A DNA stretch of 64,000 nt from Clostridia bacterium. Its GTDB lineage: Bacteria > Bacillota > Clostridia > UMGS1883 > UMGS1540. Positions 40,243 to 64,000 of this stretch are shown piece by piece (the first letter of the stretch is position 1; each line of letters begins with the position of its first letter). The notes below the pieces were generated by a model. It was not told the origin of the DNA and ran no database searches. It saw only the letters and a program-made list of their open reading frames with translations. The translations under genes and the position numbers were made by a program. The stretch spans positions 11,598 through 75,597 of the forward strand of contig JAZSLT010000016.1 in assembly GCA_045535515.1 (NCBI GenBank), given 5' to 3'.

Positions 40243-41568
40243 TCACTTTCTTTTTTTAATATCAATGCTGTTTTCGTCCCGATTATCTAAAAGCTCACCC
40301 GGCGTAAAACGCCCCTGCCGGATTTTAGGCGGAGTGGACAGCGCAGGGCGCGACATCACGGCATAGCGGACCGATTCGGGCGCGTGCGTAATTTCATGGG
40401 GACTGTCGGACGCGTCCTCGGGCGAGTGGGGGTCATACAAAAGCGCAGGAAGGGTTCGTATAATGTGAATACAGTTTTCAAAAAACGAGATTTTCTTTCC
40501 GCGCAAGTATTCCCGCAGTACGCGCCAGCCGGCCACGCGGCGGTTGTCGGCACGAATAAGGCCGCATAAGCCCTTTTCGGCCATAATTTCCACACCGCTT
40601 TTCCCCGTGTCCTGCCGCCGGTTCCATAAATCGGGGGAGGCCACCGTATAGGAAATTTTTTCCTCCGGCGGCGAGAGAGACAGAATTTCCTGCGCCGCCT
40701 CGGAAAGGGTAAGTCCGCTTTTGTAAAGCTCGCGGTAGCAGGTAAGATTGCCCTCGCCATCTACGGCCCACCAGTGACAGGCCGTCATATCCAGACCATA
40801 GTCAAGGCTCCGAAACCGCTTGTGATAGGCAGGGATAGCCTCGGGCGGCCGGACATGTGTCCGGCGGGAAAACTCGCCGAAGAACTGGCCCTCAAAGATG
40901 TCCCAATCCCCATAGAGGAGCGCCCTTTTTTCGTTTTCGGGGAGAAGCATAAGGCGGGAGAGGTAGTCGGCATCCTTTTCCATTAAAAACCGGTTTTCCT
41001 CCACGCGCGCAGGGATAAAAATGCGCGTTCGCTCCTCGCCGAATACCGTAAACGGCGGCGCAGGGGAAATAAATCGCGCCTTCACCCAGCCGTGTCCGCG
41101 GCTGCCGGGATTTGTGGTGCTTTTCATTTGTTTCGGGTATCCGCTCGTGCCGCGCAGGCGGCTGAGCATATATAGGTATTGGTATTCTGTAAAATGCGTC
41201 AGCTCGTCAAAACGAATGACATCATATTCGGCCGATTGATACATCATCACATCCGTATCCGCCGCCAGAAAACCAAATTCAATCAGGGAACCGTTGGAAA
41301 GCGTTAATTTGTGCTTGGTGCTCTGGTACTTATAAAGGGGCCTTGGAATAAGCTCCAGCGCCGTCAGAATGAGAGAACGCTCCAGCGCAGGGAATGAGGA
41401 GCGGAGCAGGAGCTGGCGGCTTTTGGGGTAGCGCATGGCATAGAGAAAGGCATCCACCACCTGCCCGTACGATTTGCCGCCTCCGGCTGCACCGCCGTAC
41501 AAAACCTCGTCGGCCGCGGCCTCGACAAAGGCCGCCTGCTTTCGGGTAATGGAAAGGGTATATTCCAT
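40243..41568 (-). CDS. phage terminase large subunit
   Basis: Walker A GGAAGGGKS near the N-terminus and a C-terminal nuclease-like half; start at MEYTLSITRKQ. No other phage genes adjacent. Confidence 0.8.
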   Translation of the reverse strand: MEYTLSITRKQAAFVEAAADEVLYGGAAGGGKSYGQVVDAFLYAMRYPKSRQLLLRSSFPALERSLILTALELIPRPLYKYQSTKHKLTLSNGSLIEFGFLAADTDVMMYQSAEYDVIRFDELTHFTEYQYLYMLSRLRGTSGYPKQMKSTTNPGSRGHGWVKARFISPAPPFTVFGEERTRIFIPARVEENRFLMEKDADYLSRLMLLPENEKRALLYGDWDIFEGQFFGEFSRRTHVRPPEAIPAYHKRFRSLDYGLDMTACHWWAVDGEGNLTCYRELYKSGLTLSEAAQEILSLSPPEEKISYTVASPDLWNRRQDTGKSGVEIMAEKGLCGLIRADNRRVAGWRVLREYLRGKKISFFENCIHIIRTLPALLYDPHSPEDASDSPHEITHAPESVRYAVMSRPALSTPPKIRQGRFTPGELLDNRDENSIDIKKRK

Positions 41569-41569
41569 T

Positions 41570-41746
41570 TCATTCGACCACGCGGATTTTGACCTCCACA
41601 TTCTGGGCGTGCGGAGTCTCCTCGTCTGCAAGCTTTAAAAGACATTCCGAAACCTTGAGCCGGTCCTTCACATCCGCCGCCTCATCGCGGAGAACAGAGG
41701 TCAGAAAGGCTTGCACTTCCTTTTTGTCGGCTACTTTTTTTCGCAT
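41570..41746 (-). CDS. small phage-associated protein upstream of terminase (possible small-subunit remnant)
   Basis: About 58 aa from MRKKVADKKEVQAFL..., GGAGG 7 nt upstream. Stop is separated from the terminase ATG by 1 nt. Start coordinate is +/-1 nt. Confidence 0.3.
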   Translation of the reverse strand: MRKKVADKKEVQAFLTSVLRDEAADVKDRLKVSECLLKLADEETPHAQNVEVKIRVVE

Positions 41747-42650: not shown

Positions 42651-42664
42651 AAAGGAGAATGGAC

Positions 42665-43660
42665 ATGCCTTTATTTGAAAGCTATGAAAGAAGAATTGAC
42701 CAGATAAATGCCACCTTGGCAAAATACGGTATTGGCTCTATTGAAGAAGCTAAGAAAATTTGTGACGATAAGGGTCTGGATATTTACAACCTCGTAAAAT
42801 CCATTCAGCCCATTTGCTTTGAGAATGCTTGCTGGGCGTACATAGTCGGCGCGGCGATTGCCATTAAGAAGGGCTACAAGAATGCAAGCGAAGCTGCCGA
42901 AATTTTGGGCGAAGGTCTCCAGTCCTTCTGCATCCCCGGCTCTGTTGCGGATGACAGAAAGGTTGGTCTTGGCCACGGAAACTTGGGCGCCATGCTTCTC
43001 CGCGATGAAACGAAGTGCTTTGCCTTCCTGGCCGGTCACGAATCCTTTGCCGCCGCAGAAGGCGCCATCGGTATTGCCCGTTCTGCCAACAAGGTAAGAA
43101 AAGAACCGCTGCAGGTAATCCTCAATGGTCTCGGCAAGGATGCAGCACAGATTATTTCCAGAATTAACGGCTTTACCTATGTAGAAACGGAATTTGATTA
43201 CTACACAGGCGAGCTGAAGATTGTATATGAAAAGGCATATTCGAATGGCGAACGCGCAAAGGTACGCTGCTTCGGTGCGGACGATGTTCGCGAGGGTGTT
43301 GCCATTATGCACCATGAAAAGGTTGATGTTTCCATTACCGGTAACTCCACCAACCCCACCCGTTTCCAGCACCCTGCTGCCGGCACCTACAAGAAGGAAT
43401 GTATCGAACAGGGCAAAAAGTACTTCTCCGTGGCTTCGGGCGGCGGTACAGGCAGAACGCTCCATCCCGATAACATGGCCGCAGGTCCTGCTTCCTACGG
43501 CATGACCGATACGATGGGCCGTATGCACTCGGACGCCCAGTTTGCAGGCTCCTCTTCCGTTCCTGCACATGTAGAGATGATGGGCCTTATCGGCGCCGGT
43601 AACAACCCGATGGTTGGTATGACCGTTGCGGTGGCGGTTGCCCTTTCTGAGCTTCTGTAA
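42665..43660 (+). CDS. GGGtGRT family protein (function unknown)
   Basis: Contains the eponymous SGGGTGRT motif near the C-terminus. About 330 aa as expected for the family; start at the ATG 7 nt after AAAGGAGA. Terminator at 43672-43706. Confidence 0.55.
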   Translation: MPLFESYERRIDQINATLAKYGIGSIEEAKKICDDKGLDIYNLVKSIQPICFENACWAYIVGAAIAIKKGYKNASEAAEILGEGLQSFCIPGSVADDRKVGLGHGNLGAMLLRDETKCFAFLAGHESFAAAEGAIGIARSANKVRKEPLQVILNGLGKDAAQIISRINGFTYVETEFDYYTGELKIVYEKAYSNGERAKVRCFGADDVREGVAIMHHEKVDVSITGNSTNPTRFQHPAAGTYKKECIEQGKKYFSVASGGGTGRTLHPDNMAAGPASYGMTDTMGRMHSDAQFAGSSSVPAHVEMMGLIGAGNNPMVGMTVAVAVALSELL

Positions 43661-43713: not shown

Positions 43714-44730
43714 TTACGACATCGTAACATGCTTATACATTTTTTCTACCGCTTCGTTCATATTCACGGGGGAGAGTTTAATGTACGGATGTTCGCTTTG
43801 GAACACAACAAAAATCTGATGTGCAAAGCCTTGTCCCATCCAGTCCACTTTGTCAAAATCCAATACAACCTCTTCAAATTTCGAAAGCTGATTACAAACG
43901 CGCCGCGCCTGTGAGCGGGAGACGGGTGAAGTCTCAAAAATATTTTTAAGCGGAATTTGCGTTTTGACAAAGCGCGAGTCCGCATCGGAATATTCGTCAA
44001 AAATTTCTTTGGCCTGTTTTTTGGAATGATTGGAAAGGGACATAATAACAATGGTTCCCTTGTGGTTTGAAAATTCGGGAAAATCAAGCGTCCGGCTATC
44101 GTCATATTTATTTACCGCGAACAACTTTCCGGAGGAATAGATTAAAAAACCATCCATTATCTTGGAGCTGAAAAAGATGCCTTCTCCCGAATGTCTTGTT
44201 TCATCGGTGGTAAGCTTGCCTTTGAACAGTTCGCAAACGGCATCATCATAGCTGTCAAGGTTAAAATGCGTTTTAATCTTTTCAAATATACCTACGCCGT
44301 CATCGATGATAGTAACCACAGTTTCGAGGAAATTGCGCGAAACCGTAATAACTGCGCGCTCTGCCTGCGAATGGTCAATGACATTATTTATCATTTCGCT
44401 GAAGGTGTATTCCCATATACCCTTCACATTCTCGTCTAAATCCGAAATGATGTCTTTCAGATATTTAGAATACGCATAACTGTCATCATCTAAATCTCCG
44501 GCATTTCTATATAAAACAAAGGTGGTTTTCTGATTGATAAGCGCATATTCGCCTCTTTTTAGTTTTTCAATAGTTCCTTGTTGTAAAAGTTTTTTGATGT
44601 ACGAATGAACGGTGGATTCGTTGATGCCAAATGCTTTTTGTACGCTGGGCACAATGCTGTCGCTCTTTTTGCTAATCTTTTCCAGGATATATTGTATAAT
44701 GGCGTTTTTCTTTTCCGCATCAAATTTCAT
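43714..44730 (-). CDS. single-chain winged-HTH / GHKL-ATPase / STAS-like (DUF4325-type) protein
   Basis: N-term wHTH (VHSYIKKLLQQGTIEKLKRGEY). Central GHKL-like region (INNVIDHS...DDGVGIF). C-terminal VLDFDKVDWMGQGFAHQIF resembles STAS domains of the anti-anti-sigma type. About 40% GC against a roughly 58% background. Confidence 0.45.
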   Translation of the reverse strand: MKFDAEKKNAIIQYILEKISKKSDSIVPSVQKAFGINESTVHSYIKKLLQQGTIEKLKRGEYALINQKTTFVLYRNAGDLDDDSYAYSKYLKDIISDLDENVKGIWEYTFSEMINNVIDHSQAERAVITVSRNFLETVVTIIDDGVGIFEKIKTHFNLDSYDDAVCELFKGKLTTDETRHSGEGIFFSSKIMDGFLIYSSGKLFAVNKYDDSRTLDFPEFSNHKGTIVIMSLSNHSKKQAKEIFDEYSDADSRFVKTQIPLKNIFETSPVSRSQARRVCNQLSKFEEVVLDFDKVDWMGQGFAHQIFVVFQSEHPYIKLSPVNMNEAVEKMYKHVTMS

Positions 44731-44790
44731 ATGCACACCTCTTTTATGCTCTATTATATGCTTATTATACAGGCTTATTCAAATAAAGTC

Positions 44791-46303: not shown

Positions 46304-47473
46304 CTATCGCACAATATTTTGGCTGTATTCTATATCAAAAAGCCTGTCACATAAATTAAAGGCCGTGCCGTAAAAAATATTTTCCTCCGTTTCATTCGTT
46401 CGTTTTATGAGCAGCTTTTTGGTAAGGGTGGGGTACGCGCGCCGTTGCATTTCCAGCTCCGCCTCTTTTATCAGCGAAGGGCAGCACTCAAAATCGCCTG
46501 CATTAATCACCATAACGGAGGGATTGAACAGATTTACGAGATTAGCAAGGCCTATCCCCAAATACCGTCCACATTCGAGGATGGCATGCACGGCGGCCTC
46601 CTCACCTTTTTCGTAAAGCTTATCCATTTCCGCTAAAGAGGGCGCCTTTTTGCCGGTTGCCTGTTCGTAAAGGGACATAAGCCTTTGCGCGGAGCACATA
46701 GCCTCCAGACAGCCGCGGTTTCCGCAAAAACAGGCTTCGCCGTGAATGTCTACGGTCGTGTGTCCTATTTCGCCCAAAGTAGAGCGGGAGATGGCGCCGC
46801 CAAAAAACTGTACGGCCCCGATGCCGTTATCCATATCCACAAAAAGCATGTTATCCCGAAGGCTCTTGCTATGCTTATGAAAGTACCAGACCGCCCTTAC
46901 AAGCGAAACATTATCAACAAAAACAGGCAGGGCGGTGGCCGCTTGTAAGCTCTTTTTTATATCAAAGGACTTCCATTTAAGACGCGAGGAAAAAACGAAA
47001 TTACTGTCATCGAGTATAAGGCCGGAAATCGCAAGACCGATGCCGAGGATTTTATCCGCTCGGTGCCTTTTGATAAGCGTGAGCGTGTTTTTGCAAAGCG
47101 CATCCATCGTATCGGAGGCCGTCAGGGTGTCCATTTTCATTTTAATTCTGTCTTTCGTATGCCCGGCAAGGTCTGTATACGCAATATTTATATAGTTTTC
47201 ATGGAGATAAATACAAATCAGACTATAGTTTTGCACGCAAAACCGCAGAAGAACACTCTTCCTTCCCACGCGCCCCACCTTTTCCACACCGCTTTCATAG
47301 AGCACACCAAGCTCCAGAAGATAAGAAGTGATATTGGTAATGGAAGCGAGGGAGAGGCCTGTTTTTTCCGCAATAAAGGGCCTAGTCACATCCGGATTAT
47401 GGCGGATGAAATCCAGAACCTTCAGCCTGTTCATCTGCTGCATGAGCTGCACATTTCCAACTTGCGTATTCAT
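46304..47473 (-). CDS. ROK family transcriptional regulator (NagC/XylR type)
   Basis: N-terminal HTH, ROK sugar-kinase fold and zinc motif GEACFCGNRGCLE. Divergent from the amino-sugar operon. Confidence 0.8.
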   Translation of the reverse strand: MNTQVGNVQLMQQMNRLKVLDFIRHNPDVTRPFIAEKTGLSLASITNITSYLLELGVLYESGVEKVGRVGRKSVLLRFCVQNYSLICIYLHENYINIAYTDLAGHTKDRIKMKMDTLTASDTMDALCKNTLTLIKRHRADKILGIGLAISGLILDDSNFVFSSRLKWKSFDIKKSLQAATALPVFVDNVSLVRAVWYFHKHSKSLRDNMLFVDMDNGIGAVQFFGGAISRSTLGEIGHTTVDIHGEACFCGNRGCLEAMCSAQRLMSLYEQATGKKAPSLAEMDKLYEKGEEAAVHAILECGRYLGIGLANLVNLFNPSVMVINAGDFECCPSLIKEAELEMQRRAYPTLTKKLLIKRTNETEENIFYGTAFNLCDRLFDIEYSQNIVR

Positions 47474-47646
47474 TCTTTCTCACCTGCCGATTGATAAATT
47501 TCCTCTGTCAGTATATCACCGCACGAAAAAAATGTCAATAATATATATTTTCTATTGACAAGCGGCGCGTATAATGATACAATTAATTTAGACGGTAAAA
47601 GAATTAGTTTAACCCCAAAATACGGGACGAAAAGGAGCAAGGGCAT

Positions 47647-48271
47647 GAAGGATATACATTTGCTGGGAAAGAAAATAATAGTCGATAAATCCCCCGTTTT
47701 GTTTTCGTACCAGCCGGACGAAAACTGGCAGGAATACTGGTTTGCCGGAACGGGAACCTGGAAGCATGAAAACGGCTACCTCATCGGAGAAGAAAGACAA
47801 AACCGCGGCGGTATATTGATGTCCAAGGAAAGATTTGACAAGGACATTATGTTCAGCTTTACCATCGGTGCTGTTTTGCCGGCTACAAGAGATGTAAACG
47901 CTGTTTTTTGCGCCGATTGGGATAAAGAAACCGATTATCTCGCGGATTCTTACATCTGCGGTTTAAACGGCTGGTATGAAGGAAAGAGCGGCATCGAGAG
48001 AAACGCAAGATACGGCTCGCCGCTGTATGCTACCACCGCCTCGTACACTTATGTACCCGGCAGCGAGGTACGCATGACGGCGGGCGCCATAAAGGGCCAT
48101 ACCTTTATGGTAGTGGACGATGAACTGGTGACAGAGCTGATTGACCCGGACCCGCTTTTGGGCGGACGCGTCGGCTTTTCTGCATATTGCACCAAGCTCA
48201 AAATCAAGGATATCGAGGTTCGTGAAATATTTTGGGAGGAATTCCCACAAAAATATATTCCAGAATTTTAA
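47647..48271 (+). CDS. concanavalin/LamG-like small protein (possibly DUF1961/YesU-like)
   Basis: 208 aa from the ATG 8 nt after AAAGGAG. Beta-rich, no signal peptide. Family assignment is from weak recollection only. Confidence 0.25.
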
Positions 48272-48283
48272 GGAGAGAGTAAA

Positions 48284-49594
48284 ATGGGAAAACAAACAAC
48301 TGATTTTCGGTACAACACAGGAGCGACCAGAGTGCCCTGGGCGGCAGTAGGTGAAAACTATAATGTACAGGACCTTATGGAAATTATCCGTTTTCTGATG
48401 CAGGGTGAAGGCAAGGAATATACGGATGCGCTGGAGGCTGTTTGGGAGCAGGTGAAAAAGCTGGATGCGCTGGCAACACCGCCCGGAAAGCTTTCCCTCG
48501 GCCGCAAGGTGGAAGAGGCAGAAAATCTCTGTAACGAATACCTCGGCACAGACACCTCTACCTTCGTAACCAATGCCACCGCCGGTTTTGAAATTGCTTA
48601 TAAGTATGCCAATCTCAAAGCAGGGGACGAGGTTATCGTTCCGGCCATCACCTTTGTAGCGACTATGGCTTATCCGCTTTCCATCGGCTGCAAGCTGGTG
48701 TTTGCGGATGTAGACCCGAAGACTATCAACATGGACCCCGCCGATGTAGCCAGAAAGATTACCGACAAAACGAAGATGATTGTGCCGGTACATATTGGCG
48801 GCTATCCGGTGGATATGGACCCGATTATGGAGCTTGCCAGAAAGCACAACATTCTGGTTTTAGAGGATGCGGCACACGCCTTTGGCGCTATGTATAAGGG
48901 CAAGAAAATCGGCACCATCGGTGATTTTGCAGCCTTCTCCATGCACGAGGTTAAGAATATCACTTCCTTCGGCGAAGGCGGTATTTTAACAACAACCGTT
49001 CCCGGCTTTGGCCCGGACATGAAGAGAGCGCGTTTCCTCGGTCTGGACTTCTCCTGCCCGATAAAGGATTGGCTCTACAACATTACACCGATTCCCGGCA
49101 AAGAAGGCCCGTTTGTAGCCGGCAACTCCTCTACAACGGAAATTCAGGGTCTTGGTCTTTCGCTGCAGATTGCGCGTAACGAAGAGATTATCGCCAAGAG
49201 AACGGCGGCCGCTAAATATCTGACAGAGAGATTTGCCGAAAACGATGCGATTATCCCGCAGGACCTCGGCAATGCCGACATTAAACCGAGCTACCATCTG
49301 TATCTTCTGCAGATTGACCCGGCCAAGGCGGGCGGCGATATTCAGGTGCTGAAGAAGAAGCTGGAGGAGAAGGGCGTAACACAGATTGCCCACTTTGGTC
49401 CGCTTTACAGATTTAAGGTTGTGCAGGATATGGGTTACGATTCTGACGAAATTGCAAAGACATGCCCCAGTTGCGAAGAAGTATTCTACAAGAGATTTAC
49501 CCATTTGCCGCTGTATGGTCTGAGCGATGAGCAGCTCTCCTATATGGCAGATGCCGTACTGGAATCTGTTGCGGAGATGCAGGCCGGAAAATAA
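48284..49594 (+). CDS. DegT/DnrJ/EryC1/StrS family PLP-dependent sugar aminotransferase (long, NtdA-like)
   Basis: 436 aa; about 60 aa N-terminal extension before the fold-type I aminotransferase core. The Schiff-base lysine is probably in the SMHEVKNITSFGEGG region. Confidence 0.75.
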   Translation: MGKQTTDFRYNTGATRVPWAAVGENYNVQDLMEIIRFLMQGEGKEYTDALEAVWEQVKKLDALATPPGKLSLGRKVEEAENLCNEYLGTDTSTFVTNATAGFEIAYKYANLKAGDEVIVPAITFVATMAYPLSIGCKLVFADVDPKTINMDPADVARKITDKTKMIVPVHIGGYPVDMDPIMELARKHNILVLEDAAHAFGAMYKGKKIGTIGDFAAFSMHEVKNITSFGEGGILTTTVPGFGPDMKRARFLGLDFSCPIKDWLYNITPIPGKEGPFVAGNSSTTEIQGLGLSLQIARNEEIIAKRTAAAKYLTERFAENDAIIPQDLGNADIKPSYHLYLLQIDPAKAGGDIQVLKKKLEEKGVTQIAHFGPLYRFKVVQDMGYDSDEIAKTCPSCEEVFYKRFTHLPLYGLSDEQLSYMADAVLESVAEMQAGK

Positions 49595-49637
49595 ATTTTC
49601 CCGAAGTCTTAGATAGTACAGAAATGGAGTGGGTTAG

Positions 49638-50681
49638 ATGAAAATTAAATGGGGCGTAATCGGCTGTGGCGGTATTGCCGACAGAAGAACTCTGCCGGGC
49701 ATGATGCTGGCCGATAATGCGGAGCTGATTGCCGTTATGGATGCAAACCAGGCGGCGGCCGAGGGCTGCAAGGAAAAGTATCAGGCAAAGTATGCGTTTG
49801 ATAATATACAGGACCTTCTGGCACTTGACGAAATCGAGGCGGTATACATTGCATCCCCCGTATTTTGCCACAAGGAGCAGGCCATGGCGGCCGCTGATGC
49901 CGGCAAGGATATCTTAATCGAAAAGCCGGTGGGGCTGACCTCCGAGGAAGCTGAAGAAATTGCGGCTTACTGCGAGAAAAAGGGGGTAAAGCTGGGTGTT
50001 GGTTTTATGATGCGCTTTCATGCCTACCACCAGAAAATGCGTGAAATCGTACAGGGCGGCAAAATAGGTGACATCGTTTCGGCGCGCGCACAGCTGACTT
50101 GCTGGTACCCGAAAATGGAGAATTGCTGGCGGCAGGACATAAAGCTTTCCGGCGGCGGTGCGATGATGGATATGGGCGTGCATTGTGTGGACCTTATCCG
50201 CTATATTACGGGCATGGAGGTTACGGAGGCGGCAGGCCTTGTCGGCAACCAGGTCTTTGATTACAGTGTAGAGGATGCCGGCGCCGTCATCATGCGCCTT
50301 TCCAACGGTGCCGTAGCGTATGTGGACGCTAATTTCAATATTCCGGATGCGGCGGCAAAGTGCAAGATTGAGTTTTACGGCACAAAGGGCAGCATCTTTG
50401 CCGAGGGCACCATTTCACAGGTAGAAGGCGGCGAAATTGAGGTGCTTTGCGCCGACTCTTCTCTGGGATACGATGCAAACCAGAACCGCGAGAGCGTAGT
50501 TCCCATGGAAATTGCCGTTACCTTCGGCAATATGTACACGAAGGAAATCGAAGGCTTTGGCCGCGCGGTGGCAGGCGAGGGCGAGGTTCCCGTAACGGCC
50601 GCCGATGCCATTGCATCGCAGAAGGTTATCGAGGCCGCTTATACAAGCTGCGCTTCCAAGAAATACGAAAAACTGGTATAA
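49638..50681 (+). CDS. Gfo/Idh/MocA family sugar oxidoreductase (NtdC-like)
   Basis: N-terminal Rossmann KIKWGVIGCGGIA and EKP motif. Terminator at 50691-50720. Confidence 0.8.
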   Translation: MKIKWGVIGCGGIADRRTLPGMMLADNAELIAVMDANQAAAEGCKEKYQAKYAFDNIQDLLALDEIEAVYIASPVFCHKEQAMAAADAGKDILIEKPVGLTSEEAEEIAAYCEKKGVKLGVGFMMRFHAYHQKMREIVQGGKIGDIVSARAQLTCWYPKMENCWRQDIKLSGGGAMMDMGVHCVDLIRYITGMEVTEAAGLVGNQVFDYSVEDAGAVIMRLSNGAVAYVDANFNIPDAAAKCKIEFYGTKGSIFAEGTISQVEGGEIEVLCADSSLGYDANQNRESVVPMEIAVTFGNMYTKEIEGFGRAVAGEGEVPVTAADAIASQKVIEAAYTSCASKKYEKLV

Positions 50682-50790
50682 AAAAACGAGAAAACGGGAT
50701 GTGAGAACATCCCGTTTTTTATATGTGGTATTGCTTTTTTGTGTTTTATATGGTATTCTAATGGTATAAAGGGGAAGGAGAGGAAATAAA

Positions 50791-51513
50791 ATGAAAATTT
50801 TGTCCATTGGCAACAGCTTTTCGGAAGATGCCCAGCGGTATCTGCACCGTTTGGCAAAAAGCGGCGGTGTGGATATGAAATGCGTAAATTTATATATTGG
50901 CGGTTGTTCTTTAAAAACCCATTATTATAATATGCTGGAGGACAGTAAGGCGTATGCCTTCCAGTTTGACGGGGAAGATACGAAAATCAAGGTGACCATC
51001 AAGGAAGCGCTTATGAGCGATGAATGGGATTACATCACGCTGCAACAGGTAAGCGCCCAGTCTCCGGATTACAAAACCTATCAGCCGTACTTAAATGCAC
51101 TTACAGACTATGTACGGAAATACTGTCCGCACAGTAAAATACTGCTGCACCAGACATGGGCGTATGAGGACGGCTGCTCGCGCCTTGTAGAAACGCTCCG
51201 GTACCCGGGGGCAAAAGATATGTTTGCCGATATCGAAAAGGCGTATATGGTGGCCAAAGAGGAAATCGGGGCCGATGGCATCATCCCGTGCGGAGAAGTG
51301 TTTATAAAAGCCTTGGAGGGCGGCATCGGCAAAATACATAGGGATTGCTACCATGCCGACCTCGGTATAGGCCGCTATGCTCTCGCGCTGACATGGTACA
51401 CATATTTGACCAAAAACAACCCTGTCGGGCTACCTTTTGATGCGTTCGATGTGCCGGTAGAGGCAAAGGAAAAAGAAATTATCGAAAAAATTGTAGCAGG
51501 CGTTTGCCTGTAG
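50791..51513 (+). CDS. SGNH-like hydrolase-fold protein (DUF4886-like)
   Basis: N-terminal ILSIGNSFSED resembles the GNSFS block I associate with DUF4886/SGNH-like proteins. 240 aa, no signal peptide. Confidence 0.35.
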   Translation: MKILSIGNSFSEDAQRYLHRLAKSGGVDMKCVNLYIGGCSLKTHYYNMLEDSKAYAFQFDGEDTKIKVTIKEALMSDEWDYITLQQVSAQSPDYKTYQPYLNALTDYVRKYCPHSKILLHQTWAYEDGCSRLVETLRYPGAKDMFADIEKAYMVAKEEIGADGIIPCGEVFIKALEGGIGKIHRDCYHADLGIGRYALALTWYTYLTKNNPVGLPFDAFDVPVEAKEKEIIEKIVAGVCL

Positions 51514-51521
51514 GAGGAAAA

Positions 51522-52664
51522 ATGCAAGCAATCGTGGGCGGCAAAATCATTTTGGAGGATACTATAGTCGAAGGGAAGGCTCTTTTATTCTCGGAGAAGA
51601 TAGAAGGAGTTTGTGATGGGAGCGAAATCCCTTCGGACGCTGCGGTGATAGAGGCAGAGGGCGGATATGTAGCCCCCGGCCTTATCGACCTGCATATACA
51701 CGGGTTTCTCGGCCGCGATGTTTGTGATGCCAGCGAGGAGAGCCTCCGCCTGATATCGGGCGGTCTTTTGGAAAATGGTGTTACCGGCTACCTGCCGACA
51801 ACGATGACCGTAGACATGGACAATATAAAAGCGTCGGTAGAAATGATTGGCCGTCTTATGGAGGAAAGCCGCTCCTGGAATGGGAGCCGGATACTCGGAT
51901 GCCATGCGGAAGGCCCCTTTATAAACGAGGGAAAAAAGGGCGCACAAGTTGCAAGGCATATAAAAAAGCCCGATGCAGATTTTGTGAAAGCATACAAGGA
52001 TATTCTGAAAATTATATCCCTTGCGCCGGAGAAGGATACAGAGGATTTCCGCGTTATAGGGGAAATCAAAAGAAAAACAGATGTAGTTGTCTCCATGGGC
52101 CATACGGCGGCGGACTACGAAACCGCAAAAGCGAGCATGCAGGCGGGGGTGGCGCATGTTACGCATCTTTTTAATGCCATGACGCCCATTTCCCATCGTG
52201 CGCCTGGTGCGGCGGTGGCGGCACTCGGGGAAGATGTAAGCTGTGAGCTGATTGCCGACACCTTCCATGTATCGCCTGCCTTTTATGATATACTTTGGAA
52301 AGTAAAGGGAAGAAAGCTCTGCCTTATCACCGATTGTCTGCCGGCAGGCGGACTTGATGAGGGGGCGTATGCCCTCGGCGGACAGAAGATACTGTATCAT
52401 GATGGAATTTGCCGTCTGGAGGACGGCACGGTGGCCGGCAGTGTGCTCCGTCTTAATCGCGGCGTGTGGAATGTATATCAAAATTCCTCCATTCCGCTTT
52501 GGGAATGTGTCAATGCGGCCTCCTTAAACCCGGCGGCCGTTTTAGGCCTTGCAAGCGAAATCGGCTCTCTGGAAAAGGGGAAGAGGGCGGATATTATTAT
52601 TACGGATAATACCTTCGGCGTGCGGAAAACGATTATGGACGGTCAAATTAAATATGGGGCGTAA
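51522..52664 (+). CDS. nagA: N-acetylglucosamine-6-phosphate deacetylase
   Basis: Amidohydrolase fold with HIHG metal-binding motif; ATG at 51522 lies 4 nt after AGGAGG. Confidence 0.85.
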   Translation: MQAIVGGKIILEDTIVEGKALLFSEKIEGVCDGSEIPSDAAVIEAEGGYVAPGLIDLHIHGFLGRDVCDASEESLRLISGGLLENGVTGYLPTTMTVDMDNIKASVEMIGRLMEESRSWNGSRILGCHAEGPFINEGKKGAQVARHIKKPDADFVKAYKDILKIISLAPEKDTEDFRVIGEIKRKTDVVVSMGHTAADYETAKASMQAGVAHVTHLFNAMTPISHRAPGAAVAALGEDVSCELIADTFHVSPAFYDILWKVKGRKLCLITDCLPAGGLDEGAYALGGQKILYHDGICRLEDGTVAGSVLRLNRGVWNVYQNSSIPLWECVNAASLNPAAVLGLASEIGSLEKGKRADIIITDNTFGVRKTIMDGQIKYGA

Positions 52665-60578: not shown

Positions 60579-62513
60579 TTACCTCGCTTTGGAAGAAATC
60601 TCTTCCGTAATCTGGTCCATGAAGTCGGCAAGCGACATAGAACCCTTGTCCCCGTCACGACGGCTGCGGACGGAAACGGAGCCGGTTTCCTTTTCGGATT
60701 CGCCTACAATCAGCATATACGGCGTTTTTTCCAGCTGGGCAGAGCGGATTTTATAGCCGATTTTCTCGTCACGATTATCCGCCTCTGCGCGAACGCCCGA
60801 TTTGCGGAGCGCGTCGCACACTTCGTTGGCATAGTCGAGATACTTCTCGCTTATCGGGAGAACCTTAACCTGCAGGGGCGCCATCCAGGTAGGCAGAGCG
60901 CCTGCGTATTTCTCCAGAAGAAGCGCAATCGTGCGCTCGTAGCAACCGATAGAGGTTCTGTGAATGATGTAGGGGTTCTTCTTCGTGCCGTCTACATCCG
61001 TATATTCCATGCCAAATTGTTTGGCCAGCATCTGGTCAACCTGCAGGGTGATGAGGGTGTCCTCCTTGCCGTGTACATTCTTAATCTGAATGTCAAGCTT
61101 CGGCCCGTAGAAGGCGGCCTCGCCGATACCGATTTTATAGTCAATACCCAGGCGGTCTAAAATGTTTTTCATAACGCCCTGTGCCTCGTCCCATTGTGCA
61201 TCGGTACCGATATACTTTTCGCGGTTATCCGGGTCCCACTGGGAGAAACGATAGCTTACATCCTCGGCAAGACCAATCGTTTCGAGCATATAGTTTGCAA
61301 GCTCCAGACAGCGGCCGAATTCGCCCTCCAGCTGTTCGGGCGTACACATTAAATGCCCTTCGGAAATGGTAAACTGACGAACGCGGATAAGGCCGTGCAT
61401 TTCGCCCGAAGCCTCATTCCGGAAGAGGGTAGAGGTTTCGGCAAGGCGCATCGGCAGGTCACGGTAAGAGCGGCCGCGGTTTAAATAGGCCTGATACTGG
61501 AAGGGACAGGTCATCAAACGAAGGGCAAACACCTCATCGTCACTCTCCGGGTCGCCTAAAACAAACATACCATCGCGATAATGGTCCCAATGTCCCGAAA
61601 TCTTATAAAGGTCACTTTTGGCCATGAGCGGCGTTTTCGTGCGTTGCCAGCCCCAGGCCTCCTCGGTGTCCTCCACAAAGCGCTGCAGGGTCTGCATCAG
61701 CATCGCCCCTTTTGGGAGCATAATGGGAAGGCCTTGACCGATAACATCCGAGGTTGTGAAATATTCCAAATCGCGGCCGATTTTATTATGGTCGCGCTTT
61801 TTCGCTTCTTCGAGTGCTTCCAGATAAGCCGTAAGGTCGGCATTTTTCGGGAAAGCCGTACCGTAAATGCGCTGGAGCATTTTATTTTTTTCGTTGCCGC
61901 GCCAGTACGCACCCGTAACGCTGAGAAGGCGAAAAGCCTTCAGCTTGCCGGTGGAGGGCAGATGGGGGCCGGCGCAAAGGTCGGTAAATTCGCCCTGCTC
62001 ATAGAAGGAAAGCTCCGCATCCTCCGGTAAATCCTCAATCAGCTCTACCTTATAAGGCTCGTTCTTCTCCTGCATAAGCGCAAGCGCCTCTTTCCGGGGC
62101 AGAACAAAGCGACGGATAGGCAAATCTTCTTTGATAATTTTTTTCATTTCCGCAGAAATGCTTTCCAAATCCTCCATGGAAAGATTGGTTTCCATGTCAA
62201 TATCATAGTAGAAACCATTTTCAATGGCCGGACCGATAGCGAGCTTTGCCGCGGGGTACAGACGCTTTATGGCCTGCGCCAGCACATGGGAGGCCGTGTG
62301 ACGGTAGACAAGCTTGCCCTCTTCGCTGTCAAAGGTGAGGATTTCTACCACAGCATCCTTGGTAATAGGCATATCCAGCGCGCAAACTGCGCCGTCTACC
62401 TTTACGGCCAGCGCCGCGCGGTATAAGCCTTCGCTGATGCTTTTAGCAATGTCGCCGCCGCAAACGCCGCTTTCAAAGGAATGCACTTCATCGCGCAAAG
62501 TAATTTTCAACAT
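60579..62513 (-). CDS. thrS: threonine--tRNA ligase
   Basis: TGS, second additional domain, class II core and anticodon-binding domains. Start at MLKITLRD (ATG 62511-62513), preceded by a GGTGA SD. Confidence 0.9.
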   Translation of the reverse strand: MLKITLRDEVHSFESGVCGGDIAKSISEGLYRAALAVKVDGAVCALDMPITKDAVVEILTFDSEEGKLVYRHTASHVLAQAIKRLYPAAKLAIGPAIENGFYYDIDMETNLSMEDLESISAEMKKIIKEDLPIRRFVLPRKEALALMQEKNEPYKVELIEDLPEDAELSFYEQGEFTDLCAGPHLPSTGKLKAFRLLSVTGAYWRGNEKNKMLQRIYGTAFPKNADLTAYLEALEEAKKRDHNKIGRDLEYFTTSDVIGQGLPIMLPKGAMLMQTLQRFVEDTEEAWGWQRTKTPLMAKSDLYKISGHWDHYRDGMFVLGDPESDDEVFALRLMTCPFQYQAYLNRGRSYRDLPMRLAETSTLFRNEASGEMHGLIRVRQFTISEGHLMCTPEQLEGEFGRCLELANYMLETIGLAEDVSYRFSQWDPDNREKYIGTDAQWDEAQGVMKNILDRLGIDYKIGIGEAAFYGPKLDIQIKNVHGKEDTLITLQVDQMLAKQFGMEYTDVDGTKKNPYIIHRTSIGCYERTIALLLEKYAGALPTWMAPLQVKVLPISEKYLDYANEVCDALRKSGVRAEADNRDEKIGYKIRSAQLEKTPYMLIVGESEKETGSVSVRSRRDGDKGSMSLADFMDQITEEISSKAR

Positions 62514-62548
62514 AAGAATCACCGCTTCTCTCAAGTTATATACAAAAT

Positions 62549-62578
62549 ATTATACGCTTTTTGCCCGTTATTGTCAAT
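62549..62578 (-). promoter_or_regulatory. sigma-A promoter of thrS with short leader
   Basis: Minus strand TTGACA, 18 nt, TATAAT, about 35 nt upstream of the thrS ATG. Confidence 0.5.
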
Positions 62579-62626
62579 GATAAATCCTCAAAAAACTCTT
62601 TTTTTAATGGAAAAGAAAAAAATTCA

Positions 62627-62655
62627 AAGTTTTTCTTGACATATAATTCCGACTA
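62627..62655 (+). promoter_or_regulatory. sigma-A promoter of rpsU
   Basis: TTGACA, 17 nt, TATAAT; about 135 nt leader. Confidence 0.55.
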
Positions 62656-62790
62656 TTGTATAATATGTATGTTTATGGTAGTTATTGAGATGCTTTTTTA
62701 CATGTGGAAACGGGATGCCGCAAGGCTGTGTACTTAGCATATTACCGTAAAATATTCCCGAATTTGTAGTACTCGGAGGGAGGGATTTAG

Positions 62791-62967
62791 ATGTCGGAAA
62801 TCAGAATTAAAGATAATGAATCTTTAGATAGCGCATTGCGCAGATTTAAGCGCCAGTGTGCAAAGTCCGGTGTTCTGTCTGAAATCAGAAAGAGAGAACA
62901 TTATGAAAAGCCAAGCGTAAAGCGTAAGAAAAAGTCGGAAGCGGCAAGAAAGCGCAAGTTTAAGTAA
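62791..62967 (+). CDS. rpsU: 30S ribosomal protein S21 (not in ORF track)
   Basis: Manual translation gives [58 protein letters not shown] after GGAGGGAGGG. Terminator at 62971-62998. Confidence 0.85.
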
Positions 62968-63105
62968 GAGAAAAGCGGCCAGCATGGGCCGCTTTTTTAA
63001 TGGTCTATACCGCGGAAACGGAAAATAGGAGGCATGGAAAAAATTTTTTAAAAAAGTATTGACAAATGTTTTTGTCTGTGGTATTATAACAAAGTCGCAA
63101 GAAAC

Positions 63106-63181
63106 GCGCCATTAGCTCAGCTGGTAGAGCAACTGACTCTTAATCAGTGGGTCCCGGGTTCGAGTCCCTGATGGCGCACCA
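63106..63181 (+). tRNA. tRNA-Lys (anticodon CUU)
   Basis: GCGCCAT/ATGGCGC acceptor, D-arm GCTC-AGCTGGTA-GAGC, anticodon stem ACTGA/TCAGT with loop CTCTTAA, T-loop TTCGAGT, 3' CCA. One T-stem mismatch. Confidence 0.75.
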
Positions 63182-63183
63182 AA

Positions 63184-63227
63184 GAAACAGAACGATTTAG
63201 ATGATATTCTTGATCGTTCTGTTTTTT
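63184..63227 (+). terminator. intrinsic terminator after tRNA-Lys
   Basis: AACAGAACGAT...ATCGTTCTGTT 11-bp stem followed by a T-run. Confidence 0.7.
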
Positions 63228-63251
63228 ATATAAAGTATGTTTTTAAAACGC

Positions 63252-63385
63252 TTGAAATGTTTATAAAATTATGATATAATTATTATGCTACATACTATAC
63301 TTATAATGGTGTAGGTATATTTTTTTATCGCAAAGTGTACGCTATATAGGTAAAAGCGTACACTCTGACACAAACTTTGCGATAA
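63252..63385 (+). promoter_or_regulatory. extended -10 promoter followed by nested palindrome (candidate operator)
   Basis: TTGAAA, 17 nt, then TGaTATAAT (63252-63280). After that TTATCGCAAAGT (63325-36) and its complement ACTTTGCGATAA (63374-85) enclose GTGTACGC (63336-43) and GCGTACAC (63356-63). Confidence 0.5.
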
Positions 63386-63587
63386 AGTATATGTAAGTAT
63401 AAGTGTGTAGCAACCTTATCGTCAGAGCTTGTATGTTTTTCGTGCGTAGCTCTGAAATATGGGCTGCGCATTTTTTTGAAATAATAATGATATAATGCTT
63501 TTAGGACGTAATGAATAATTAACTTTAATTTTAAAACTTACAGTGTTATAATGGAGTTGCTCATATATAAAATATGGAGATATGTAA

Positions 63588-64000
63588 ATGAAAACTTGTG
63601 ATAAAACTAATAAAAATGGTGAGATGAACGTGTCGGGAGATGCTTTTTTTCAACGACTGTCCACAATTTATATTTCAAGCATAGTAAGTTTTTTTATTTT
63701 ATTTGTAATTGATGGCTACGAGACAATTACATTTTATAAGGCAGTATGTTTTTTTGTGTTGACAGGATGTTATGTACTGATTTCAATATTAGGCAGATTG
63801 GAACTTGTTTTAATTGGAACTCGGCGAATAGTACCTTTGCGTACTTTGTGGTTGAAATCACATATTTCTCAAAAAATGATTTTTATTTATTGGATGCTTA
63901 CGGCAATTTCTACATTATTATCAGTCGACATTAAAACTTCATTAATAGGAACTCTACGGTTTGATGGATTTTTAACTATTACATTATATTGTTGGATGTT
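63588..64000 (+). CDS. hydrophobic membrane protein, 5' part only (runs off window), in AT-rich DNA
   Basis: ATG at 63588 lies 8 nt after GGAG. Manual translation MKTCDKTNKNGEMNVSGDAFFQRLSTIYISSIVSFFILFVIDGYETITFYKAVCFFVLTGCYVLISILG... is open to the window end. Roughly 25-30% GC. Confidence 0.4.
   Translation, partial: MKTCDKTNKNGEMNVSGDAFFQRLSTIYISSIVSFFILFVIDGYETITFYKAVCFFVLTGCYVLISILGRLELVLIGTRRIVPLRTLWLKSHISQKMIFIYWMLTAISTLLSVDIKTSLIGTLRFDGFLTITLYCWM

What the first reader, a model, noticed from the sequence alone, without database searches (positions are those of the whole stretch)
46304..52664. ROK-regulated amino-sugar locus combining NtdA-like aminotransferase, NtdC-like oxidoreductase, SGNH-like protein and NagA
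Divergent from a ROK regulator are two operons.
- Operon 1: a small lectin-fold protein, an unusually long (436 aa) DegT-family aminotransferase and a Gfo/Idh/MocA oxidoreductase. The DegT size and the pairing mirror NtdA/NtdC of kanosamine (3-amino-3-deoxyglucose) metabolism in Bacillus.
- Operon 2: an SGNH/DUF4886-like putative esterase plus NagA.

No NagB is present. One reading is a catabolic route in which an N-acetylated or 3-amino sugar phosphate is deacetylated and de-esterified, then transaminated to a 3-keto sugar phosphate and reduced to glucose-6-phosphate, the reverse of kanosamine synthesis. Alternatively it is biosynthesis of a 3-amino sugar. GC content is moderately lower than the core genome.
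Basis: inference. Interest (0 to 1): 0.5.

Follow-up and report, generated by a model that had tools for sequence, protein, structure and literature searches.

The report
ROK-controlled amino-sugar aminotransferase/reductase operon
The six genes are real, but the aminotransferase is not a kanosamine (NtdA) enzyme: it belongs to a very conserved, uncharacterised clade of gut anaerobes that, with a lectin-fold protein and a reductase, probably removes the amino group from an amino sugar during catabolism.

Summary
A ROK repressor (46304-47473, -) is divergent from lectin-fold protein, DegT aminotransferase and Gfo/Idh/MocA oxidoreductase. A terminator hairpin (50691-50718) follows, then DUF4886 and NagA.

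A 21-bp palindromic operator abuts the -10 box. It sits at the same offset in 14 of 16 further ROK-linked related loci, so ROK control of operon 1 is well supported.

The NtdA/NtdC analogy fails as homology:
- NtdA scores 73 bits against 149 for generic sugar transaminases, and is absent from the top 50 structural matches.
- The extra length is an invariant N-terminal arm plus a helical insertion.
- Locus GC is not lower (49.2% vs 50.0%).
- DUF4886 and NagA are not conserved partners of the DegT module.

The DegT belongs to an isolated clade. Its nearest ordinary DegT relatives are at most 38% identical, yet it is 86-94% identical across the 80 best-matching species genomes. It also occurs in Kiritimatiellae, with a lysine-less paralogue in Sphaerochaetaceae.

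Neighbours recur: the lectin-fold protein, Gfo, sugar-sensing regulators and de-N-acylases. Best reading: inducible catabolic transamination of an amino sugar to a keto sugar, then reduction. The substrate is unknown and no biochemistry exists. Interest is moderate.

The parts
46304..47473 (-). ROK-family transcriptional repressor (389 aa) with N-terminal winged-helix domain and the CxCGxxGC zinc motif
   Evidence: Pfam ROK 124 bits plus a weak MarR_2 hit. Aligns from residue 2-4 to the NagC and Mlc models (137/125 bits, below equivalog cut-offs). The motif 'CFCGNRGC' is read directly from the translation.
47510..47538 (-). Promoter-like site for the ROK gene (TTGACA-17-TATACT, TG-extended)
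   Evidence: 11 of 12 matches. A -35-like 'ATGTCAA' is also conserved upstream of ROK in related loci.
47555..47583 (+). Promoter of operon 1 (TTGACA-17-TACAAT, TG-extended)
   Evidence: 11 of 12 matches. The same TTGAC(A/T)...TATAAT architecture is found in all 17 ROK-linked loci.
47583..47603 (+). Putative ROK operator, TTAATTTA-GACGG-TAAAAGAA. It is a degenerate copy of the palindrome TTWATTTA-N5-TAAATWAA and abuts the -10 box.
   Evidence: It is the only site with 3 or fewer mismatches in the 64-kb window. In 15 of 17 ROK-linked loci, window included, the palindrome (0-2 mismatches) starts exactly 28 nt after the start of the -35 hexamer. Background is 2 or fewer mismatches in about 1% of random 330-nt segments.
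47645..48271 (+). ConA-like (lectin-fold) protein, 208 aa. It is a distant relative of DUF1080/3-keto-disaccharide hydrolase-family proteins and has its own set of invariant polar residues.
48284..49594 (+). DegT-family PLP aminotransferase, 436 aa. Schiff-base Lys224 (HEVKN) and Asp195 are retained. It has a clade-specific invariant N-terminal arm (residues 7-26) and a helical insertion (28-61).
   Evidence: Pfam 244 bits. Isolated clade. Alignments A2 and A3. AF2 model pLDDT 86. Structural neighbours are generic sugar aminotransferases and Fic25.
49638..50681 (+). Gfo/Idh/MocA NAD(P)-dependent oxidoreductase, 347 aa (EKP motif; D-x3-H)
   Evidence: Pfam N- and C-terminal domains. Best PDB matches are 1,5-anhydro-D-fructose reductase at 120 and 116 bits, then inositol dehydrogenases, DgpA and KijD10. 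IolG model 167 bits against a cut-off of 355. In the same cluster as DegT in 45 of 76 loci.
50691..50718 (.). Bidirectional intrinsic-terminator hairpin separating operon 1 from operon 2
   Evidence: 12-bp stem AAAACGGGATGT/ACATCCCGTTTT flanked by A- and T-runs.
50791..51513 (+). DUF4886 (SGNH-clan) protein, 240 aa, function unknown
   Evidence: PF16227 at 227 bits. PDB 4i8i, a hypothetical protein, E 2.5e-41. The family had no known activity as of the 2022 review PMC9487903. It is not a conserved neighbour of the module.
51522..52664 (+). NagA, N-acetylglucosamine-6-phosphate deacetylase. The ORF opens at TTG 51504; ATG 51522 is the likely start.
   Evidence: TIGR00221 at 316 bits, above its cut-off of 226, with the alignment starting at ORF residue 15. 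The HxH metal motif 'HIHG' is seen in the translation.

Best explanation
Operon 1 (lectin-fold protein, DegT aminotransferase, Gfo/Idh/MocA oxidoreductase) is an inducible catabolic module. It is repressed by the divergent ROK regulator through a palindromic operator that abuts the -10 box.

Proposed mechanism:
1. The DegT enzyme, with its Schiff-base lysine intact, transfers the amino group of a free-amine sugar to a 2-oxo acid. The sugar would be an amino sugar, or less likely an aminocyclitol, made available by a de-N-acylase. The product is a keto sugar.
2. The Gfo/Idh/MocA enzyme reduces that keto sugar with NAD(P)H to an ordinary sugar that enters glycolysis.
3. The ConA-like protein binds or processes the sugar intermediate. 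A lyase, hydratase or isomerase-type role, as in DUF1080 proteins, is possible but unproven.

In this genome the adjacent, separately transcribed DUF4886-nagA unit may supply the amine as GlcN-6-P. That would make DegT plus Gfo a transaminative alternative to NagB.

Shown: gene content, operon boundaries, operator conservation, clade isolation, and recurrent neighbours. Inferred: the direction of the reaction, the substrate class, and the link to NagA. The position of the amino group and the phosphorylation state are unknown.

The confidence of 0.4 is for the general scheme (catabolic transamination of a sugar amine, then reduction). The specific GlcN-6-P/NagA version would rate about 0.15-0.2.
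For: Regulation:
- A promoter plus 21-bp palindrome is conserved at a fixed 28-nt offset in 15 of 17 ROK-linked loci, and there is a single such site in the window.
- Where ROK is absent, the regulator is another small-molecule-sensing type: PocR-AraC in 28 of 76 loci, cupin-AraC, or a periplasmic-binding-domain-AraC hybrid.

Partners of the DegT in 76 loci: Gfo 45, lectin-fold protein 35, creatininase-type amidohydrolase 16, OPA-like MFS transporter 10, and PIG-L deacetylase with a NagB-like protein, a PfkB kinase and a class II aldolase in 5-7.

Other contexts:
- Human-gut loci: GH38, Gfo, DegT, NagB-like and PIG-L on one strand, divergent from AraC and the lectin-fold gene, with lyxose/mannose isomerase, PfkB, aldolase and PFK nearby.
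- Kiritimatiellae: a heparinase II/III-GDSL protein and GH2 (L092), or a CE4 deacetylase (L097).
- A lysine-less paralogue in Sphaerochaetaceae sits with a sialidase-like gene, a NanA-like lyase and a sugar ABC transporter.

No glycosyltransferase, nucleotidyltransferase or flippase gene turned up among the neighbours that were annotated by Pfam. Only part of the neighbouring ORFs in the 80 loci were scanned.

The catalytic Lys224 and Asp195 are invariant. The Gfo's best solved relatives are keto-sugar reductases, the 1,5-anhydrofructose reductases.
Against: - No member of this DegT clade has been characterised, and I found no literature on it.
- Every known Gfo/Idh/MocA plus DegT pair I can name works in the biosynthetic direction (established knowledge: NtdC/NtdA, GnnA/GnnB, WbpB/WbpE, RifL/RifK).
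- I know of no DegT enzyme acting at C2 of a hexosamine, so the GlcN(-6-P) version has no precedent.
- In many loci the DegT stands alone among housekeeping genes. Its 86-94% identity across genera, against 48-89% for its neighbours, looks more like a core enzyme than an accessory catabolic one.
- NagA adjacency is unique to this window. In other loci a NagB-like gene sits right next to the DegT, which argues against a simple 'NagB replacement'.
- Fic25, one of the closest structures, uses a non-sugar substrate.
Confidence: 0.4

Rival explanations
1. Transaminase-initiated glycoside cleavage through 3-keto chemistry. The DegT converts a 3-amino-3-deoxy-glycoside, for example a kanosamine-type residue, to a 3-keto-glycoside. 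The DUF1080-like protein acts as a 1,2-lyase and hydratase that releases the aglycone and forms the 3-keto sugar. The Gfo enzyme reduces it to glucose. This is the free-sugar, catabolic version of the reader's 'reverse kanosamine' idea.
For: - All three conserved components have family precedents for C3 chemistry. Gfo plus DegT pairs act at C3 (established knowledge).
[quoted passage not shown] The same preprint notes that 3-amino glycosides escape that pathway because C3 cannot be oxidised (bioRxiv 10.1101/2024.03.25.586180).
- The 12-nt gap between the lectin-fold gene and DegT suggests coupled expression.
Against: - PF06439 is below threshold in the window protein (15 against 26.8 bits).
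- CBM66 and YesU are at least as close structurally.
- In my manual mapping, which used the DUF1080 consensus recalled from memory, the E-x-Q and Q-x-H active-site motifs reported for BT2 are not matched. This is inference, not a test.
- No TIM-barrel lyase partner is present.
- 3-amino glycosides are rare in gut glycans, which is hard to reconcile with presence in hundreds of species.
- The DegT often occurs without the lectin-fold protein or Gfo.
Confidence: 0.15
2. Biosynthesis of an amino sugar, either kanosamine-like or a cell-envelope sugar. The Gfo enzyme oxidises a sugar, sugar phosphate or sugar nucleotide at C3. The DegT aminates it, as in NtdC/NtdA, GnnA/GnnB or WbpB/WbpE.
For: - This is the direction of all characterised Gfo plus DegT pairs (established knowledge).
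- The top NCBIfam hits of the DegT are nucleotide-sugar transaminases: PseC 197 bits, dTDP-4-amino-4,6-dideoxygalactose transaminase 191, ArnB 166.
- The Gfo hits archaeal UDP-GlcNAc 3-dehydrogenase at 125 bits.
- The high conservation would suit a core envelope function.
Against: - All those hits are far below the equivalog cut-offs.
- NtdA and KabA are weak matches.
- There is no NtdB-type phosphatase, acetyltransferase, nucleotidyltransferase or glycosyltransferase in the window's operon or among the annotated neighbours elsewhere.
- The regulators are sugar-responsive catabolic types and the neighbours are transporters, deacetylases, kinases and aldolases.
Confidence: 0.12
3. Aminocyclitol or inositol metabolism. 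The DegT is an inosose/inosamine aminotransferase and the Gfo an inositol dehydrogenase. In some genomes a creatininase-type ring-opening hydrolase (IolN-like), an IolC-like kinase and an IolJ-like aldolase complete the route.
For: - The Gfo's best NCBIfam hit is IolG (167 bits).
- Inositol dehydrogenases are among the top PDB hits.
- The DegT hits the 2-deoxy-scyllo-inosose aminotransferase BtrR at 123 bits.
- The creatininase-like neighbour gives a weak IolN hit (49 bits), and the PfkB neighbour's best hit is IolC (120 bits).
Against: - Every one of these is far below its equivalog cut-off (355, 245 and 300 bits).
- No IolE, IolD or IolB is present.
- The window itself lacks the creatininase, kinase and aldolase genes.
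- The accompanying deacetylases, the NagB-like gene, GH38 and the heparinase point to amino sugars rather than cyclitols.
Confidence: 0.08
4. The DegT acts on a non-sugar amine or has a core metabolic role. Its adjacency to the sugar genes, and to DUF4886-nagA here, carries no pathway meaning.
For: - Solitary DegT genes lie among housekeeping genes in many Clostridia and Kiritimatiellae loci.
- An AgcS amino-acid carrier is a neighbour in four loci.
- Fic25, a DegT-fold enzyme acting on an amino-acid-like substrate, is among the closest structures.
- Sequence conservation is extreme.
Against: - The lectin-fold protein and Gfo recur in more than 40% of loci, and sugar-sensing regulators sit directly upstream.
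- Glycan-degrading neighbours are found in three phyla.
Confidence: 0.15

Closest known systems
NtdA/NtdC (and KabA/KabC) of kanosamine biosynthesis in Bacillus
   Same: A DegT-fold PLP aminotransferase of about 440 aa is encoded next to a Gfo/Idh/MocA oxidoreductase. The chemistry links a keto sugar and an amino sugar.
   Different: - NtdA scores only 73 bits, over residues 64-238. KabA scores 84 bits. Generic sugar transaminases score 149.
- NtdA is absent from the top 50 Foldseek matches.
- The extra residues here are an N-terminal arm plus a helical hairpin specific to this clade.
- There is no NtdB phosphatase.
- The regulation and neighbours are of the catabolic type.
3-keto-glycoside pathway of Bacteroides/Alistipes (Gfo-type 3-dehydrogenase/reductase, DUF1080 lyase-hydratase BT2/AL2, TIM-barrel lyase BT1/AL1)
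   Same: A ConA-like protein with DUF1080 affinity is co-encoded with a Gfo/Idh/MocA enzyme in a sugar-regulated operon.
   Different: - The DUF1080 model scores below its threshold.
- Structural similarity is no better than to CBM66 or YesU.
- There is no TIM-barrel lyase.
- A DegT aminotransferase is the central, best-conserved member of the module.
UDP-sugar C3 oxidation/transamination pairs (GnnA/GnnB, WbpB/WbpE) and nucleotide-sugar C4 aminotransferases (PseC, ArnB, WecE, perosamine synthase)
   Same: These are the best family-level and structural matches of the DegT. The Gfo gives a weak hit to UDP-GlcNAc 3-dehydrogenase.
   Different: - Identity is 24-31% in the structural alignments.
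- All scores are less than half of the equivalog cut-offs.
- No nucleotide-sugar or glycan-assembly genes are nearby.
NagC/NagA/NagB N-acetylglucosamine regulon
   Same: A ROK repressor with an N-terminal HTH, an AT-rich palindromic operator overlapping the promoter, and a bona fide NagA next door.
   Different: - The ROK protein scores 137 bits against a cut-off of 650 for NagC.
- There is no NagB or GlcNAc transporter in the window.
- The operator precedes the DegT operon, not nagA.
scyllo-inosose aminotransferase plus inositol dehydrogenase (StsC/BtrR with IolG/IdhA; rhizopine MosB)
   Same: The same two enzyme families. IolG is the top NCBIfam hit for the Gfo, and BtrR is among the DegT hits.
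   Different: All scores are below their cut-offs. No other iol genes are present. The context points to amino sugars.

Membership tests
NtdA-type 3-oxo-glucose-6-phosphate:glutamate aminotransferase | Closer in sequence to NtdA/KabA than to nucleotide-sugar or other DegT aminotransferases | tested here: not met
   phmmer against the PDB: NtdA 73 bits and KabA 84 bits, against 140-149 bits for 7b0d, ArnB, Fic25 and perosamine synthase.
NtdA-type 3-oxo-glucose-6-phosphate:glutamate aminotransferase | The extra N-terminal domain of NtdA | tested here: not met
   - Only query residues 64-238 align to NtdA residues 91-261.
- Residues 1-24 are predicted disordered and 28-61 form two helices.
- NtdA is not among the top 50 Foldseek hits.
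- The N-terminal 65 residues are shared only with the clade's own members.
NtdA-type 3-oxo-glucose-6-phosphate:glutamate aminotransferase | Operon with an NtdC dehydrogenase and an NtdB phosphatase | tested here: not met
   A Gfo/Idh/MocA gene is present, but there is no phosphatase in the operon or among the ORFs of 42.6-56.4 kb that were scanned. The ORFs of the rest of the window were listed but not scanned. A direct comparison with NtdC was not possible: no NtdC-named entry appears among the PDB hits.
DegT/DnrJ/EryC1/StrS aminotransferase superfamily (fold type I, class VI) | Pfam PF01041 match above threshold, with the Schiff-base lysine and the PLP-binding aspartate | tested here: met
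   244 bits against a cut-off of 19.8. K224 and D195 are invariant in 37 sequences.
Gfo/Idh/MocA oxidoreductases | N-terminal Rossmann domain and C-terminal alpha/beta domain above the Pfam thresholds, with the EKP motif | tested here: met
   PF01408 at 102 bits and PF22725 at 106 bits. 'IEKP' is read in the translation.
myo-inositol 2-dehydrogenase IolG (equivalog) | Score above the TIGR04380 cut-off | tested here: not met
   167 bits against a cut-off of 355.
DUF1080 / 3-keto-disaccharide hydrolase family (BT2/AL2 lyase-hydratases) | PF06439 match above the gathering threshold | tested here: not met
   15.2 bits against 26.8 in the window protein. 25 of 28 relatives give sub- or near-threshold hits, best E 6.9e-7.
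DUF1080 / 3-keto-disaccharide hydrolase family (BT2/AL2 lyase-hydratases) | Conserved metal-binding and active-site residues reported for BT2 (Glu103, Asn134, Glu164, Gln166, Tyr190, Lys245, Gln273, His275) | tested here: inconclusive
   No residue-level structural alignment was available. My manual mapping suggests that only the Asn (N85) is matched, but it rests on a consensus recalled from memory.
ConA-like lectin/glucanase fold | Beta-sandwich jelly roll with significant structural matches | tested here: met
NagA (GlcNAc-6-phosphate deacetylase) | Equivalog model above its cut-off | tested here: met
   TIGR00221 at 316 bits against a cut-off of 226.
NagC/Mlc-type ROK repressors | ROK domain with an N-terminal DNA-binding domain and a palindromic operator at the regulated promoter | tested here: met
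   Domain layout. Conserved 21-bp palindrome at a fixed offset from the -35 hexamer. Equivalog membership of NagC or Mlc themselves is not met: 137 and 125 bits against cut-offs of 650 and 530.
DUF4886 (SGNH clan) | PF16227 above its threshold | tested here: met
   227 bits against 26.7. An esterase activity is not testable here, and the family has no known function.

The most novel reading that the evidence does not exclude
This DegT clade would be the first catabolic sugar transaminase of its family. It would strip the amino group from an amino sugar, giving gut anaerobes a route that needs no NagB-type deaminase, with Gfo reduction serving as an NADH sink.

The amino sugar could be one of two kinds:
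- a hexosamine or hexosamine phosphate released by de-N-acetylation;
- a 3-amino-glycoside, which would then be cleaved by the DUF1080-like protein through a 3-keto intermediate.

In the second form it would extend the newly described oxidative 3-keto glycoside-cleavage pathway to the amino-modified glycosides thought to resist it.
Probability: 0.2. Interest if true: 0.7.

Novelty: new variant of a known kind. Interest (0 to 1): 0.4.

Why it matters
The aminotransferase is one of the most conserved proteins in its neighbourhood. In a scan of one genome per species it has relatives in at least 477 genomes (tblastn E of 1e-3 or better), mostly rumen, caecal and human-gut Clostridia. It also occurs in Kiritimatiellae. 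It has no characterised relative above about 38% identity.

If it is a catabolic amino-sugar transaminase, three things follow:
- A missing step is filled in how uncultured Oscillospirales and their relatives use host, fungal or microbial amino sugars.
- Nitrogen would be captured directly as glutamate or alanine.
- A second, non-oxidative entry into keto-sugar chemistry would be shown.

If it is not, the locus is an ordinary ROK-regulated sugar operon next to nagA.

Tried and rejected
- NtdA likeness was rejected on sequence, N-terminal architecture and predicted structure.
- 'Lower GC, horizontal origin' was rejected.
- DUF4886-NagA as a conserved unit, or as part of the module, was rejected. 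NagA is next to the DegT in 0 of 80 loci and DUF4886 in 1 of 80. Four metagenomic DUF4886 relatives lack both.
- A riboswitch or other RNA element in 44.0-54.5 kb: none found, only a chance-level CsrC hit.
- Exact-sequence look-ups of the window's DegT, its identical database copy and the DUF4886 protein found no contig on record.
- The afdb50 fold library was unavailable.
- Literature searches found no study of this module. The terms covered DUF4886, the PDB codes, DUF1080 with aminotransferase, kanosamine catabolism, NtdC structures, and DegT with Gfo, ROK and GlcNAc.
- The recurrent 310-aa neighbour family ('c8') could not be annotated: no Pfam hit and no PDB hit, even with a profile.
- I considered muramic delta-lactam recycling, because sporulation genes flank the locus and a creatininase-type lactam hydrolase occurs in relatives. 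I also considered aminoglycoside detoxification. I dropped both for lack of any supporting evidence.

Full report
OBSERVATION

The six ORFs exist as described, and their family assignments hold.
- 46304-47473 (-) is a 389-aa ROK protein. Its N-terminal extension aligns from residue 2-4 with the NagC and Mlc models (137 and 125 bits, far below their equivalog cut-offs).
- 48284-49594 is a DegT/DnrJ/EryC1/StrS aminotransferase (244 bits).
- 49638-50681 is a Gfo/Idh/MocA oxidoreductase.
- 50791-51513 is DUF4886 (227 bits).
- 51504/51522-52664 is NagA (TIGR00221, 316 bits against a cut-off of 226).

- Divergent 11/12-match promoters lie between ROK and the lectin-fold gene.
- The gaps are 12 nt (lectin-fold gene to DegT) and 43 nt (DegT to Gfo).
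- A strong bidirectional hairpin terminator lies at 50691-50718, after the Gfo gene.
- DUF4886 and nagA are 8 nt apart, or overlap if the TTG start is used.

Two details fail.
- Locus GC is 49.2% against 50.0% for the rest of the window.
- The DegT's length does not reflect an NtdA-like architecture (see below).
No NagB homologue lies in the window. The rest of the genome is unknown.

ROK CONTROL

I fetched 80 loci encoding close DegT relatives and extracted the region upstream of every divergent ROK gene.
- All carry TTGAC(A/T)-17-TATAAT-like promoters.
- These are followed by a 21-bp palindrome, TTWATTTA-N5-TAAATWAA.
- In 15 of 17 loci, the window included, the palindrome (0-2 mismatches) starts exactly 28 nt after the first base of the -35 hexamer. 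Two or fewer mismatches occur in about 1% of random 330-nt segments of the same loci.
- The window's copy (47583-47603, 2 mismatches) is the only site with 3 or fewer mismatches in all 64 kb.
- The architecture is the same whatever the first gene of the operon is: the lectin-fold gene, DegT, an MFS transporter, the unknown 'c8' gene, or a PIG-L deacetylase.

ROK repression of operon 1 is therefore well supported. There is no such site in front of DUF4886-nagA.

THE DegT IS NOT NtdA-LIKE

By sequence against the PDB:
- The best matches are an archaeal 'sugar transaminase' (7b0d, 149 bits), ArnB, Fic25 and perosamine synthase (about 140 bits).
- KabA scores 84 bits. NtdA scores 73 bits, aligned only over residues 64-238.

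NCBIfam's best hits are PseC, dTDP-4-amino-4,6-dideoxygalactose transaminase and ArnB. All are at less than half of their cut-offs.

An exhaustive HMMER search of 1.84 billion 50%-identity representatives shows an isolated clade.
- The only full-length relatives are a 60%-identical group and a 43%-identical group.
- The 60% group is Kiritimatiellae by source names.
- The 43% group is Sphaerochaetaceae. It has lost the Schiff-base lysine.
- Everything else is at most 38% identical and aligns only from about residue 65.

Clade-specific features:
- an N-terminal arm (D7-Y26, 'DFRYNTG..VPWAAVGENYN') that is invariant across the Clostridia and Kiritimatiellae sequences aligned;
- a roughly 30-residue helical insertion (28-61).
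In the model (pLDDT 86), residues 1-24 are of low confidence and 28-61 form two helices.

The top 50 Foldseek matches are generic sugar aminotransferases, Fic25 (which has a non-sugar substrate), AHBA synthase and BtrR, at TM 0.66-0.72. NtdA is not among them. K224 and D195 are invariant, so a transaminase, not a dehydratase, is expected.

The oxidoreductase's best solved relatives are 1,5-anhydro-D-fructose reductases (120 and 116 bits), followed by inositol dehydrogenases, DgpA and KijD10. Its best NCBIfam hit is IolG, at 167 bits against a cut-off of 355.

WHAT TRAVELS WITH THE DegT

Conservation. Across the 80 best genome loci, drawn from 477 or more species genomes with a relative, the DegT is 85-94% identical to the window's. 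These are uncultured rumen, caecal and human-gut Clostridia labelled Congzhengia, Ructibacterium, Faecousia, Flemingiibacterium, Ornithomonoglobus, Acutalibacteraceae and Oscillospiraceae. The neighbours are much less conserved: Gfo 58-89%, the lectin-fold protein 54-78%, ROK 48-72%.

Clustering all neighbouring ORFs gave these counts in 76 loci:
- Gfo in 45.
- The lectin-fold protein directly upstream in 35.
- A PocR-AraC regulator in 28, or ROK in 17.
- A creatininase-family amidohydrolase between DegT and Gfo in 16.
- An organophosphate-antiporter-like MFS in 10.
- An unannotatable 310-aa family ('c8') in 10.
- The block PIG-L deacetylase, PfkB kinase, class II aldolase and distant NagB homologue directly upstream of DegT-Gfo in 5-7.

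NagA is adjacent in none of the 80 loci and DUF4886 in one, L058. Four DUF4886 relatives from metagenomes have neither.

Other contexts:
- Human-gut contigs show GH38, Gfo, DegT, NagB-like and PIG-L on one strand, divergent from AraC and the lectin-fold gene. Lyxose/mannose isomerase, PfkB, aldolase and PFK lie nearby.
- In two contigs the lectin-fold gene sits near a NagA-like amidohydrolase.
- In Kiritimatiellae the DegT follows a sugar-binding-domain-AraC hybrid regulator. Alternatively it sits with a TAT-signal 'c8' homologue, a heparinase II/III-GDSL protein and GH2, or near a CE4 deacetylase. In other loci it is solitary.
- The lysine-less Sphaerochaetaceae paralogue lies with a SorC regulator, a sugar ABC transporter, a BNR sialidase-like gene and a NanA-like lyase.

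No glycosyltransferase, nucleotidyltransferase or flippase gene appeared among the neighbours I annotated. Only part of the neighbouring ORFs were scanned.

INTERPRETATION

The recurring picture has three elements: a small-molecule-sensing regulator, some kind of de-N-acylase, and the DegT with or without the Gfo and the lectin-fold protein. The de-N-acylase is NagA here; elsewhere it is PIG-L, CE4 or a creatininase-type amidohydrolase.

The most economical reading is an inducible catabolic step. A sugar amine is transaminated to a keto sugar and then reduced.

The evidence does not fix which carbon carries the amine.
- The C2 reading (GlcN or GlcN-6-P) fits the deacetylases and the 2-keto-sugar-reductase affinities of the Gfo. 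It has no precedent in the DegT family.
- The C3 reading fits family precedent for Gfo plus DegT pairs. It also fits the DUF1080 connection to 3-keto-glycoside lyase and hydratase chemistry (bioRxiv 10.1101/2024.03.25.586180). However, the DUF1080 assignment is sub-threshold, and 3-amino sugars are scarce in the gut.
- Biosynthesis, cyclitol metabolism and a non-sugar substrate remain possible.

The extreme conservation, and the frequent solitary occurrence among housekeeping genes, are not well explained by any purely accessory catabolic role.

VERDICT

This is a real ROK-regulated operon next to nagA. The kanosamine (NtdA/NtdC) homology is not supported. The DUF4886-nagA link is local to this genome.

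The core is an uncharacterised, isolated and highly conserved DegT clade with a ConA-like partner and a Gfo reductase. I found no literature on it.

It is moderately interesting as a candidate new catabolic use of a sugar aminotransferase, but the mechanism is inference only.

Noticed in passing
L049:7027-7959, L051:9324-12180 (three tandem copies), L092:18297-19403: An orphan family of about 310 aa ('c8') has 60-odd invariant residues, including HW..S, LPYGH, YNH and NHEQY motifs. It has no Pfam hit and no PDB sequence homologue. It co-occurs with the DegT clade in both Clostridia (cytoplasmic form) and Kiritimatiellae (TAT-signal form, next to a heparinase II/III-GDSL protein and GH2).
   Followed up: partly
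L100:9001-10311 (protein P0510/P0244): A 43%-identical paralogue clade in Sphaerochaetaceae keeps the N-terminal arm but has Asn in place of the Schiff-base lysine. It lies in an operon with three URO-D-family genes, a sugar ABC transporter, a BNR sialidase-like gene and a NanA-like lyase.
   Followed up: partly
L056:9324-10604 (also L029, L053, L054, L077, L079): In several loci a second, full-length DegT paralogue (31-33% identity, 426 aa, lysine present) directly follows the conserved DegT, giving tandem aminotransferases.
   Followed up: partly
window 48284-49594 versus its neighbours: The DegT is 85-94% identical across genera, while ROK (48-72%), the lectin-fold protein (54-78%) and Gfo (58-89%) in the same loci are much less conserved. 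It is also 60% identical between Clostridia and Kiritimatiellae. This suggests unusually strong constraint or recent lateral spread.
   Followed up: partly
window 42659-43660 (+) and 43714-44736 (-): A GGGtGRT-family protein (Pfam 652 bits, function unknown) lies next to a 340-aa protein that combines a winged-helix region, a histidine-kinase-like ATPase domain and a DUF4325 STAS-like domain.
   Followed up: no
window 40243-41631 (-): A 462-aa ORF with a P-loop ('GGAAGGGKS') near its N-terminus looks like a phage terminase large subunit sitting among housekeeping genes. It was not checked with any tool.
   Followed up: no
window 62001-64000: GC falls to 37.5% in the last 2 kb of the window, against about 50% elsewhere.
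   Followed up: no
L082:5950-6267 and L100:7942-8820: A PHP-domain protein, or a 105-aa PHP-like fragment ('GSDAHHP'), recurs next to the DegT clade in human-gut Clostridia and in Sphaerochaetaceae.
   Followed up: no
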